Both the position numbers and the translations under genes were made by a program. A stretch of DNA of 62,986 nucleotides, the filler included, from Platydemus manokwari (taxonomy: Eukaryota): assembly GCA_037951405.1 (NCBI GenBank). It is 6 parts of 6 records of this genome, joined end to end, with 100 filler letters (N's around TTAATTAATTAA, not from the genome) between each part and the next. Parts side by side here need not be neighbours in the genome. Positions count along the whole stretch, not along the records: positions 10,041 to 20,410 come from JBBMOY011139328.1; 5 more parts are not named here. The stretch is one strand, 5' to 3'. The notes below the pieces were generated by a model that was not told where the DNA came from, searched no databases, and saw only the letters and a program-made list of their open reading frames with translations. How positions within the stretch are numbered: the first letter of the stretch is position 1; the number at the start of each line of letters is the position of its first letter. Below are positions 12,441 to 14,682 of this stretch, piece after piece.

Positions 12441-12522
12441 ATAATATAAAAAAATTATTATAAGTTACTTGAATGACTATTGATTGAAATTTTTTGAACA
12501 AAATAATGAACCTTTAGGGTCA

Positions 12523-12620
12523 TTTTTATATGTTTACAGCATTCGCGAATGGTTCCTTCCCCCAATTTCAAAGGGGGCCCCTCACAGTCGCTGCGTTCCC
12601 GTTCGCTTCGTGTAAACGAA
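12523..12620 (-). promoter_or_regulatory. Candidate promoter of the Rep cassette: TATA box plus upstream GC-rich palindromes
   Basis: Minus-strand TATAAAAA at 12530-12523; perfect palindrome CATTCGCGAATG at 12540-12551; CCCCC-9nt-GGGGG hairpin at 12559-12577 overlapping GGGGCCCC at 12574-12581; TTCG-TGTAAA-CGAA hairpin at 12607-12620. Confidence 0.45.
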
Positions 12621-12965
12621 CACCAAGCACTTATAATTTTTTTTCGTAAAGGAAATATGTGTGTAAACGAAATCAATGAGATGATTCGAGCAGGAGACGG
12701 CAAGAGCACAAAAATAATAACACAATAATATCTGTGTAATAAATAAATATCTATGTAGGTGTGTAAGTGTGTAACATAATTACACCTTATCGAGTGTAGT
12801 ATAGCACAGCACAGGCAAATAATATTCTCTCTACGCTGCACAGGTAATCCTATAATATAATAATTGCACAGCACTGATAAAATAGTTTTAGGCTACACAA
12901 CTGTGTAATTGCACAGATGATGACTCATTACACTGAAAACAATATCTATGTAACTGTGTAAACAG
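12610..12965. repeat. Cluster of short direct and inverted repeats (candidate iterons and replication origin)
   Basis: GTGTAAACGAA at 12610 and 12661; AATATCTRTGTA at 12727, 12746 and 12941; TAATTGCACAG at 12861 and 12906; hairpin GTGTAA-CATAA-TTACAC at 12769-12785; near-palindrome CTGTGTAATTGCACAG at 12901-12916. Confidence 0.6.
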
Positions 12966-12971
12966 CTGACA

Positions 12972-12977
12972 TTTAAT
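12972..12977 (-). terminator. Candidate polyadenylation signal (ATTAAA) of rep
   Basis: ATTAAA on the minus strand about 20 nt after the Rep stop codon. Confidence 0.4.
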
Positions 12978-12997
12978 ACATATATTTGAGTACAACA

Positions 12998-14621
12998 TTA
13001 CACATATGAGTCAAGTAGTTTGTATTCACCATCTAGTCCATGTGGGTCAGGGAAATATTCGAATTTAGACTCCCGACCGCTTCGCTTAGATTCATCCGTC
13101 CATAGGGATTGCTTGACACGATACAATGGTGTATCAGACAGAGTGACGATATGGCAACGACGGCGAATTGCCTTAATGCGCGATGATGGCCAACTCGGGT
13201 TAATAACCTGGTCAATATCATTGGAGCAAATTATTCGACGTAGACCTTTGACTAAAACTCCGGTGCCGTACTTGACATTTATAGACGTTGTCATCTCGAC
13301 ATCCGTGATGTTTATGAGCTCCTCAGGTAGCCATGTAGAAAGGGCGAGGTCATCAATGACTACTCCATCATACTCGAATTTATTCGGGCCCAATCTCTCG
13401 AAATCTTGTCTGATGGTAACATGTAGGGGTGTTGAGAAATGAGACAGAGCATAGTTCGTTTTTCCTACCCCTAAAAAACAATCAATAGGGTTTGAGCACA
13501 ACTTTCATTACCTGTTGGTCCGATGAGTATAACACACAAGTTGGTGAACTTAATAAAAGGGAAGGCCCAATTATCACTAAAATTCGGCTTCGACACACAT
13601 CCTAATTTTCTGTGGAGGGTCTGCTCGAGTTTGGGTGCCATTCGTATATACTCTAATGGTTTCTCCTCCTCCACCATCTTCATACCTTCCGTCACTGATC
13701 GCACACATAGGAAGCGAGACCAGAAATCATCATCAATACTCCTACGCTTAACAGTACCGAAACCAAATTTGACACCGCCCTGCACACGTGTATCTTCCTT
13801 ACTACAGTAATCGATGGCTGCCTGCACCTCAGGCTCAGGGATACCCTTAATGAATGGGATGTCCAGAAACTTTTTCGCCGCCGGATACGTGCGTGCATTC
13901 TTGAACGTGATAAACAACTCCATGTGTGCAAAGCCATTTATACTCATCTCTTCCTGCCCCACTGCAAAATTACATGCGTCATACATCTTCGTTTGCAACT
14001 CAGGGCGTGCGTGCCACACACTCATAGGAACTGAGAATCGGAAATTTCTAAATCTCTGCCGCGGGTCGGCGGATGTATTGACAGGGCCTGGAATATATTG
14101 TGTGTCATTTCGGGCACCAGTATCTCCGGTGCGACATACACTTGTTTCGCCATTAGTATCTGGAAGTACTGCTCCAGCGGAGAGCAATAGTAGTGATCTA
14201 TACATACATAATTAAGTGGTGACATAAAAAATATACCGTGCGGCATCATCTGCATCAACTGACACACACTCGAGTTTTCGTTCATCAGGTGTGCGTGTTT
14301 GGGTGTTATGACGGAAGCTAAGGCGTCCAGATACTGAACTTGTAGGAACACATTTACGGCTTCTCTTAGCCTGATTTCCATCATAAGCCTGTGTTGTAGG
14401 AATTTCGACGGGGCTATACTTGTGGCATAGTTCATTAAACTCGTCGGGATCGATGACAAGATCCGGGAGCGGGCTTGGTTGTGTCGGCCTAGTACACGTT
14501 AATAAAATTAACATACAATCAGTGTGTACCGGTCAAATAATCGGCAGCATTCATCGTAAATCCCATCGATGTCAACTTGGCTATCTGGGATTCGGTCTCC
14601 GTTAATACTGCTCTGGGACAT
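12998..14621 (-). CDS. rep: CRESS-DNA-virus-type Rep (HUH endonuclease + SF3 helicase), 500 aa; exons 14621-14530, 14488-14237, 14197-13512, 13470-12998
   Basis: Motif I RNFRFSV, motif II VGQEE...AHMELF, motif III AIDYCSKEDT, Walker A GPTG|VGKT (restored by splicing), Walker B VVIDDL, INVKYG, motif C IICSN and Arg finger AIRRR. Three GT-AG introns of 41, 39 and 41 nt leave 1503 nt with no internal stop. The last two exons are secure; the first exon is less certain. Confidence 0.92.
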
Positions 14622-14674
14622 TCTGATGCGTATACTGATGGTTTGATATTGGCAACTGAATATGGCGCCATCAT
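14022..14674 (-). CDS. ORF-Y: 190-aa hypothetical protein overlapping the Rep N-terminus in another frame; exons 14674-14530, 14488-14237, 14197-14022
   Basis: Starts at aaaatcATGATGGCG. Removing the same two introns as Rep gives a stop-free 573-nt frame (MMAPYSVANIK...SQIAKLTSMGF...LTG|RHNQARSRILSS...MPH|DHYYCSP...SDSQFL) that ends over Rep motif I. Confidence 0.6.
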
Positions 14675-14682
14675 GATTTTGA

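What the first reader, a model, noticed from the sequence alone, without database searches (positions are those of the whole stretch)
12441..14682. The Rep cassette looks like a ~2.24-kb circle opened between its TATA box and its start codons
Seen: the first ATG (14674) lies only about 8 nt from retroelement-like coding DNA, leaving no room for a promoter. The roughly 550-nt non-coding tail downstream of Rep carries, in transcription order, ATTAAA, direct repeats and hairpins, GC-rich palindromes, then TATAAAAA (12530-12523) pointing out of the cassette. Joining 12441 to 14682 places this TATA box about 100 nt upstream of the ORF-Y ATG. Known: about 2 kb is typical for CRESS circular genomes. 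Inference: this is a single-unit integration of an episomal circle, and free circles may exist in this host.
Basis: inference. Interest (0 to 1): 0.88.

Follow-up and report, generated by a model that had tools for sequence, protein, structure and literature searches.

The report
Intron-bearing viral Rep cassette, integrated
An intact, intron-containing replication gene of the kind used by tiny circular DNA viruses sits inside a decayed retrotransposon-like element, laid out as a small circle would be if opened near its replication origin, although its exact ends and any free circle are unproven.

Summary
The cassette is real. It is a roughly 2.1-2.3 kb insert in a decayed gag-type element of an AT-rich, short-intron, animal-like eukaryote. 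It encodes an intact CRESS-type Rep (Y1 endonuclease plus SF3 helicase) of an unnamed, well-supported clade, and an overlapping ORF-Y with no capsid signature. The Rep model has three 39-41 nt introns: one confirmed by homology, two inferred. The listed tail motifs are at the stated coordinates, and the tail's short repeats exceed chance. Its TATA box and folding do not.

The order genes, poly(A) signal, TATA matches a Rep-only circle numbered from its origin (alphasatellite, PMC9049520). However, the 14682 end is not visible: both reading frames stay open upstream of it, so '8 nt, no room for a promoter' is unproven. An 8-bp direct repeat (14740-14733 and 12445-12438) resembling a nonanucleotide core is a better but only suggestive end pair. 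No canonical nonanucleotide or origin stem-loop was found.

Best reading (0.5): a unit-length, capsid-less Rep replicon integrated near its origin. Free circles and other copies could not be tested.

The parts
14733..14740 (-). 8-bp word ATTATTAA, copy 1: candidate right end (b), 58 nt upstream of the ORF-Y ATG
   Evidence: the only two copies in the 6-kb block 11427-17440 lie here and at 12438-12445, same strand, 2295 nt apart. Shuffles reach 8 nt in 3, 14, 31 and 114 of 400 depending on search window.
14682..14683 (-).
   Evidence: no frame break here
14530..14674 (-). ORF-Y exon 1 (48 codons); same frame as the upstream flank ORF
   Evidence: weak UBA-like Pfam match below cut-off (E 0.003-0.007)
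14022..14488 (-). ORF-Y exon 2 (about 155 codons; about 203 aa in all), overlapping the Rep N-terminal extension; no capsid signature
   Evidence: no usable hit in Pfam, PHROGs or Atlas; fold model pLDDT 40
14530..14621 (-). Rep exon 1 (ATG 14621; inferred)
   Evidence: no homology support for the N-terminal extension
14489..14529 (-). Intron 1, 41 nt GT-AG (inferred); one splice keeps both the ORF-Y and the Rep frames open
14237..14488 (-). Rep exon 2 (84 codons open in the frame overlapping ORF-Y)
   Evidence: chance of no stop about 0.007 at the flank's off-frame stop rate
14198..14236 (-). Intron 2, 39 nt GT-AG (inferred; in frame; contains the only stop between exons 2 and 3 and an alternative in-frame ATG at 14205)
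13512..14197 (-). Rep exon 3: endonuclease motifs I (14049-14029), II HME (13926-13912), III YCSK (13809-13798), linker, first half of Walker A
   Evidence: Pfam Viral_Rep E 0.0015, below cut-off; Atlas CRESS Rep 0.93; 57 relatives; positions
13471..13511 (-). Intron 3, 41 nt GT-AG, splitting Walker A
   Evidence: 11 of 57 relatives align continuously across 13510/13471 with a frame change; alignment
12998..13470 (-). Rep exon 4: SF3 helicase (GKT, Walker B 13363-13349, motif C 13234-13220, arginine finger 13168-13157; labels from recall), stop TAA
   Evidence: family profile matches PCV2 Rep 7lar over profile positions 11-292, E 3.5e-09
12972..12977 (-). ATTAAA, poly(A)-signal-like, 20 nt after the Rep stop
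12441..12997 (-). Tail: iteron- or enhancer-like repeats (TGTGTAA x6, GTTTACA x4), hairpins, GC-rich stretch about 12615-12540, AT-rich end 12522-12441; holds a 144-codon stop-free frame
12523..12530 (-). TATAAAAA pointing out of the cassette (chance-level motif by itself)
12438..12446 (-). TATTATTAA: copy 2 of the 8-bp word plus a 5' T; one base off the babuvirus nonanucleotide TATTATTAC; candidate left end
   Evidence: nonanucleotide from PMC9049520; not in the loop of a stem
16193..17311 (-). Flank: decayed gag-like ORF with CCHC knuckles (5 stops)
   Evidence: only weak retroviral Gag/NC matches, E 0.12; Ty3/gypsy label is from recall
14741..16292 (-). Flank: unidentified A-rich ORF2 (341 codons, 0 stops) and ORF3 (1 stop)
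   Evidence: no family or homolog found
11409..12439 (-). Flank: decayed A-rich coding-like DNA (9 stops in 345 codons, one frame change); its first part is in the same frame phase as ORF3
   Evidence: no family

Best explanation
A unit-length, capsid-less CRESS-type Rep replicon (satellite- or plasmid-like circle, about 2.2-2.3 kb) was opened in its intergenic region, at or near its origin, and inserted as one piece of DNA into an already decaying gag-type retroelement. As a circle, the tail's TATA region would drive one spliced transcript across the origin, encoding ORF-Y and Rep in overlapping frames and ending at the ATTAAA signal; the tail repeats would be Rep or transcription-factor sites. 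Rep (Y1 HUH plus SF3 helicase) nicks and replicates by rolling circle. Integration most likely came from Rep nicking and strand exchange with an origin-like host word, which would leave the shared 8-bp core at both ends and strand the promoter downstream. Shown: intact Rep, its clade, intron 3, insert-like composition, less decay than the flanks. Inferred: introns 1 and 2, the ends, promoter use, the circle, the integration chemistry.
For: Rep complete with all catalytic motifs and no stop in 500 modelled codons, against 15 stops in 1213 flank codons (P 0.002; 0.014 for the 345 homology-supported codons). Both flanks are A-rich on the minus strand (skew +0.25 and +0.34) while the Rep region (+0.01) and tail (-0.09) are not, and the flanks share frame phase. 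Introns are retained, so the insertion was of DNA, not reverse-transcribed mRNA (inference). The layout equals an alphasatellite numbered from its nonanucleotide (PMC9049520; Fig. 3 legend of PMC5890292). The 8-bp direct repeat one base off TATTATTAC sits near both composition-derived ends. Tail repeats are enriched. Of the 4 relatives with a contig length, the two full-length Reps lie on 1792 and 2083 nt contigs (circularity not shown). Whole CRESS genomes are known to integrate, probably through Rep (PMC7493932).
Against: No NANTATTAC in the cassette (21 matches in the window, none in 12441-14682). No stem between the two ends under either end pair. The 8-bp repeat is at chance level with wide windows (114 of 400), two other shared 8-mers exist, and the word occurs 54 times in the window. 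Composition of 14732-14683 favours the flank (LLR +2.4 against cassette coding DNA) and the best single change point is 14576, which argues against end (b) and leaves ORF-Y exon 1 possibly flank DNA. The TATA box is chance level. No second copy in the window. No capsid gene recognised. Flank ORF2 also has 0 stops in 341 codons, so decay is uneven.
Confidence: 0.5

Rival explanations
1. A linear fragment of a larger CRESS virus genome, cut at arbitrary points and captured by break repair. The promoter and any capsid gene were left behind, and the tail is simply the downstream intergenic region, its TATA belonging to the next viral gene or being chance.
For: No origin stem-loop or nonanucleotide; ends not marked; TATA at chance level; many endogenous Reps are fragments and some lie inside transposons (PMC3198968).
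Against: The insert would have to begin just upstream of both start codons and end just after a TATA box. Size and order match a Rep-only unit. The two full-length relatives with contig data sit on 1.8-2.1 kb contigs.
Confidence: 0.22
2. A composite retroelement: Rep is cargo of the gag element, ORF-Y is the spliced C-terminal half of flank ORF3, and the tail's TATA drives the downstream ORF at 12439-11409.
For: ORF3 runs in frame into ORF-Y with one TGA. Composition is flank-like down to about 14577. The tail's open frame continues into the left ORF in the same frame. A GT at 12468 and a CAG at 12425-12423 could bound a 46-nt intron in place (sequence).
Against: The cassette lacks the flanks' strand skew and is less decayed. 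Retained introns on the sense strand argue against passage through retroelement RNA (inference). Dual-frame openness starts at 14732 (P about 0.02).
Confidence: 0.15
3. A long-resident linear Rep transposon or a domesticated gene that is never episomal and is expressed from an internal or host promoter.
For: Three host-sized introns (39-41 nt; host 43, 43, 48, 58 and 93 nt). Several relatives end in intron-like tails at varied positions, and P0010 and P0014 stop at the same Gly as intron 3 (inferred from protein ends only). Replitron-1 has introns and short terminal direct repeats (PMC10288648).
Against: No 5' promoter space is evident. No copy elsewhere in 63 kb. A domesticated gene inside a decayed retroelement is unlikely (inference).
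Confidence: 0.1
4. Assembly chimera of a co-sequenced free circle with a host repeat.
For: Fragmented assembly of about 10-kb contigs; no reads available.
Against: No gap inside the contig; the shared words at the ends are at most 8 bp, too short to join assembly paths (inference); flanks match on both sides.
Confidence: 0.03

Closest known systems
Alphasatellites and other Rep-only CRESS circles (Alphasatellitidae; unclassified 'circular molecules')
   Same: No capsid gene recognised; one sense Rep unit; TATA upstream and start codon just downstream of the origin, poly(A) signal right after the stop (PMC9049520; PMC5890292); endonuclease resembles nanovirus Rep structures 6h8o and 2hwt (family profile E 2.5e-06).
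   Different: About 2.2-2.3 kb rather than about 1.1 kb; three introns; overlapping ORF-Y; long N-terminal extension; no TAGTATTAC stem-loop; animal-like host; Rep in a separate clade.
Endogenous CRESS viral elements (Liu et al. 2011; whole genomes in Entamoeba and Giardia, Kinsella et al. 2020)
   Same: Rep with endonuclease and SF3 helicase in a eukaryotic contig, GC above host, inserted into a transposon (PMC3198968; PMC7493932).
   Different: Intact and multi-intron; no Cap; layout suggests opening near the origin. The word 'intron' has 0 occurrences in the main text of both papers.
Circoviridae (PCV2 Rep)
   Same: Domain order Y1 endonuclease, linker, SF3 helicase; best solved match of the family profile (7lar, E 3.5e-09).
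   Different: Distant; motif II is HME rather than HUQ; no ambisense capsid gene; no nonanucleotide stem-loop.
Replitrons (Craig 2023)
   Same: Eukaryotic 2-4 kb elements with a CRESS-related Y1 Rep, introns and short direct repeats at or near the ends (PMC10288648).
   Different: Replitrons lack a helicase and carry GYxxK/HUQ. This Rep has a full SF3 helicase and no hit to the Replitron Pfam families. Copy number here is unknown.
Helitrons
   Same: HUH-based rolling-circle insertion, generally without target duplication.
   Different: Y2 Rep plus SF1B helicase in Helitrons, against Y1 plus SF3 here; no CTRR end (rule from recall).

Membership tests
CRESS DNA virus (Cressdnaviricota) | Rep with Y1 HUH endonuclease fused to SF3 helicase | tested here: met
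CRESS DNA virus (Cressdnaviricota) | Capsid protein gene | tested here: inconclusive
   ORF-Y has no usable hit in Pfam, PHROGs or Atlas; single-sequence model pLDDT 40; no evidence for a capsid, but remote folds are not excluded
CRESS DNA virus (Cressdnaviricota) | Nonanucleotide at the apex of a stem-loop | tested here: not met
   No NANTATTAC in the cassette; one-off TATTATTAA at 12446-12438 is not in a loop; ends do not pair
CRESS DNA virus (Cressdnaviricota) | Circular single-stranded, encapsidated genome | not testable with these tools
Alphasatellite-like Rep-only circle | Single sense Rep unit with TATA before and ATG after the origin | tested here: inconclusive
   Order fits, but the ends and the origin are not established
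Alphasatellite-like Rep-only circle | About 1.1 kb size, TAGTATTAC origin, Rep within the alphasatellite clade | tested here: not met
   2.1-2.3 kb; motif absent; the tree held no named references, so clade placement against Alphasatellitidae itself was not tested
Replitron | Rep without a fused helicase; PF21859/PF21860 domains | tested here: not met
   SF3 helicase present; no such Pfam hit
Replitron | Short direct repeats at or near termini | tested here: inconclusive
   8-bp repeat, 3 to 114 of 400 shuffles by window
Replitron | Multicopy, copy-and-paste | not testable with these tools
   No other copy in the 63-kb window; rest of the genome unavailable
Helitron | Y2 Rep fused to SF1B (PIF1) helicase | tested here: not met
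   Single Tyr motif YCSK and SF3 helicase
pCRESS bacterial plasmids | Relatives in bacterial or archaeal genomes or plasmids; no spliceosomal introns | tested here: not met
   0 of 11 pattern matches confirmed in GTDB genomes (one pattern only); no match in plasmids or phages; intron 3 confirmed

The most novel reading that the evidence does not exclude
The clade (19 of the 37 rows in the tree) is a family of capsid-less, multi-intron Rep-SF3 elements of animals that alternate between a nuclear circle and integrated copies. They would insert by Rep nicking at an origin-like AT-rich word, and their promoter would be connected to the genes only in the circle. That would be a helicase-bearing HUH mobile element distinct from Helitrons and Replitrons: an animal nuclear plasmid or rolling-circle transposon caught between virus and transposon.
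Probability: 0.2. Interest if true: 0.82.

Novelty: new variant of a known kind. Interest (0 to 1): 0.5.

Why it matters
Endogenous CRESS Reps are common and are usually decayed fragments. This one is intact, spliced and dual-coding, and it ties an unnamed Rep clade, otherwise seen here only as unnamed database proteins, to an animal-like host. If the ends are at the origin, it is a natural record of Rep-mediated integration, a mechanism usually assumed rather than seen. It would also give a direct test, by reads and copies from the same genome, of how CRESS replicons become transposons. If it is a random fragment, it is one more endogenous Rep with unusual introns.

Tried and rejected
Word-index homolog searches with Rep exon 3 (0 of 176 candidates) and with flank ORF3/ORF-Y read through with X (0 of 115) found nothing, so the right end could not be fixed by homology.

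My eye-catch that the Rep N-terminal extension resembles P0002's was rejected (score 32 against a shuffle mean of 31; 383 of 1000 shuffles as high).

Single-sequence folds of Rep exon 3 (pLDDT 34) and ORF-Y exon 2 (pLDDT 40) were too poor to use; no fold search was run.

Pairing between the two cassette ends, tested as separate strands, was at chance under both end pairs. A general excess of shared words at the junction zones was not found (27 six-mers against 22 +/- 6). A codon-position model did not separate ORF-Y exon 1 from flank DNA.

No LTR pair or second copy was found in the window, and no similarity between the flank pieces and 18200-20410. Rfam and tRNA scans were empty. A Pfam match of ORF-Y exon 2 to a botulinum helical domain (E 0.1, 12.6 bits against a cut-off of 52.2) is chance. 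A TAA/TAG=Gln host code was rejected because eRF1 exon 2 is open for 267 codons under the standard code.

The look-up of names and accessions for relatives could not be made. The host was not identified: eRF1 scores higher against the top entries (alignments shown; read as mammalian from recall; 479 bits) than against four lower-scoring full-length eRF1 entries (420-435 bits, read as fungal or plant from recall). My one literature guess of an orthonectid host gave 0 papers.

Literature searches listed no paper describing a multi-intron Rep-SF3 integrative family. They cover only the open-access library, and no supplements were read; sequence datasets in those supplements could contain this clade.
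Full report
Setting. The window is six contigs joined by spacers, and the finding lies in the second, 10041-20410. The host DNA is about 25% GC. It carries eRF1 and casein kinase genes with GT-AG introns of 43, 43, 48, 58 and 93 nt, and the eRF1 looks animal-like (species labels from recall). The host was not identified further. A GC-richer block runs from about 11427 to 17444. On the minus strand it holds a decayed gag-like ORF with CCHC knuckles (weak Gag/NC matches only, E 0.12), two unidentified ORFs, the Rep cassette, and more decayed coding-like DNA.

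The Rep. ORF 14211-13474 matches Pfam Viral_Rep weakly (E 0.0015) and CRESS Rep clusters in the Atlas (0.93). A full HMMER search gave 57 relatives, 8 at E up to 1e-10, with 42-58% identity for the best five. In tblastn against the window, 11 of these 57 run continuously from the frame ending at 13510 into the frame starting at 13471. This confirms a 41-nt GT-AG intron splitting Walker A. A profile of the family matches PCV2 Rep across endonuclease and helicase (E 3.5e-09). In a tree of 37 rows (36 relatives of at least 240 aa plus the window; 23 stored proteins left out, listed), the window's Rep falls in a 100/100 group of 19, apart from 18 canonical-looking CRESS Reps. No named references were in the tree. 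No relative was confirmed in GTDB genomes (0 of 11 pattern matches), plasmids or phages. Names of relatives could not be looked up. A profile search returned four, all unnamed, on contigs of 1792, 2083, 1758 and 698 nt.

Gene structure. A filter for AT-rich GTA...AG segments of 24-69 nt gave 4 candidates in 1.7 kb; three are 41, 39 and 41 nt long. Together they give a 500-codon Rep frame from ATG 14621 and, through the same first intron, a 203-codon ORF-Y from ATG 14674 in an overlapping frame. Introns 1 and 2 are inferred: the N-terminal extension has no significant similarity to relatives, and Rep could instead start at ATG 14205. Still, the Rep frame is open for 67 codons upstream of intron 1 and 84 codons after it, with chances of 0.02 and 0.007 at the flanks' off-frame stop rate. 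ORF-Y has no usable match anywhere and no sign of being a capsid. Several relatives end in intron-like tails, two at the same glycine as intron 3, while others are continuous there. This rests on protein ends only.

Is it an insert? Both flanks are A-rich on the minus strand (skew +0.25 and +0.34), while the Rep region (+0.01) and tail (-0.09) are not. Change points fall at about 14518-14706 and 12350-12666. The flanks carry 15 stops in 1213 codons and the Rep none in 500 (P 0.002; 0.014 for the 345 homology-supported codons), though flank ORF2 also has none in 341. The flanks are in the same frame phase. A younger DNA insert in one decayed element is therefore well supported.

The motifs are where stated: ATG 14674, ATTAAA 12977, hairpins and palindromes, TATAAAAA 12530-12523, and 98 nt between TATA and ATG if the proposed ends are used. 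The tail's short repeats exceed chance (0 of 300 shuffles for 7- to 10-mers). The TATA box does not (184 matches in the window, one at 12445-12452 facing the other way), nor does tail folding. The right end at 14682 is not visible. The ORF-Y frame runs on into the flank ORF, the Rep frame is open from 14732, and the proposed ends share only AT. So 'eight bases, no room for a promoter' depends on an assumed boundary. The tail also holds a 144-codon open frame (46 of 3000 simulations), so 'non-coding' is not certain.

A better end pair, still only suggestive. ATTATTAA occurs twice in the 6-kb block, at 14740-14733 and 12445-12438, on the same strand and 2295 nt apart. Shuffles reach an 8-nt in-phase repeat in 3, 14, 31 and 114 of 400 trials, depending on the search window. 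The tail copy reads TATTATTAA, one base off the babuvirus nonanucleotide TATTATTAC (PMC9049520). Against it: the word is common in this genome (54 copies), two other shared 8-mers exist in the widened zones, and 14732-14683 looks compositionally like flank. Neither end pair gives a stem between the two ends, and no exact NANTATTAC lies in the cassette.

How it most likely works. In a babuvirus-associated alphasatellite numbered from its nonanucleotide, the TATA box is at nt 1076 of 1105, mRNA reads begin at nt 17, the Rep AUG is at nt 41 and the poly(A) signal at nt 880 (PMC9049520 passages). Coconut alphasatellite origins likewise have TATA boxes 5' of the stem-loop, with rep start codons close enough to fall in the origin alignment for some (PMC5890292 passages). 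I put 0.5 on a unit-length, capsid-less replicon integrated this way, probably by Rep strand exchange with an origin-like host word. The steps from layout to circle to chemistry are inference. Rivals are a truncated linear fragment (0.22), a composite retroelement in which ORF-Y continues flank ORF3 (0.15), a linear resident transposon or domesticated gene (0.10) and misassembly (0.03). Whether free circles exist now is untested.

Comparison with what is known. Rep-like sequences are widespread in eukaryotic genomes (302 in 35 species, some inserted in transposons; PMC3198968 passages), and whole CRESS genomes are integrated in Entamoeba and Giardia (PMC7493932 passages). Intron-interrupted Reps and Rep-only circular molecules occur among arthropod-associated CRESS genomes (PMC6186406 passages). 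Replitrons have introns and short terminal direct repeats but no helicase (PMC10288648, parts 1-5 of 7 read). Passages of PMC6668415, PMC7758297 and PMC11296320 were also seen and changed nothing. The element works like a Rep-only CRESS replicon. It fails the origin test for a CRESS virus and the helicase tests for Replitrons and Helitrons, so it is filed in none of these. Eight literature searches listed no description of this clade; no supplements were read.

Verdict. The feature is real and the interpretation partly supported. It is a new variant of a known kind, interest 0.5. The boldest reading left open, a family of intron-rich, helicase-bearing HUH elements cycling between nuclear circle and chromosome in animals, has probability about 0.2 and would merit about 0.8.

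Noticed in passing
window 12461-12892 (-): 144-codon stop-free frame in the tail, in the same frame phase as the left flank ORF and ORF-Y; its only ATG overlaps the end of the TATA box (12524). It ends in two stops inside a very AT-rich, intron-like stretch that begins with GT at 12468; acceptor-like AGs exist both in place (12425-12423) and near the other end of the cassette.
   Followed up: partly
window 12531-12537, 12611-12617, 12662-12668, 12957-12963: Four GTTTACA/TGTAAAC words in the tail, one just before the TATA box; they resemble forkhead sites (recall) or iterons.
   Followed up: partly
window 18200-20410 (-): A second A-rich, decayed coding-like stretch upstream of the gag-like ORF, with no Pfam match and no similarity to the flanks.
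   Followed up: partly
window 17340-17750 (-): AT-rich stretch with TATA-like and AATAAA words, followed by a TGG-starting word just upstream of gag: possibly a solitary LTR and primer-binding site (recall); no partner LTR in the window.
   Followed up: no
window 15270-16292 (-): 341-codon ORF with no stop inside an otherwise decayed element and no family match; no protease or reverse transcriptase was recognised after gag.
   Followed up: partly
window 11409-17311 (-): 13 of the 15 flank stops are TAA or TAG, as C-to-T decay of glutamine codons would give.
   Followed up: no
proteins P0017, P0048, P0003: P0017 has a 17-residue AT-codon-rich insertion before motif II and P0048 begins at the same place, suggesting another intron position in the family; P0003 appears frameshifted at Walker A.
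   Followed up: partly
window 36226-37643 (-), 46663-47743 (-), 53092-53790 (+): Host genes: eRF1, a casein kinase 1-like kinase and a RING-finger protein. The eRF1 has Ala in place of the aromatic residue just before GTASNIKS.
   Followed up: partly
window 23023-23279 and 26722-26955: Two-copy dispersed repeat, about 85% identical, 3.7 kb apart.
   Followed up: no
window 52847-52983 and 57189-57325: 137-nt inverted repeat, 79% complementary, 4.2 kb apart, bracketing the RING gene.
   Followed up: no
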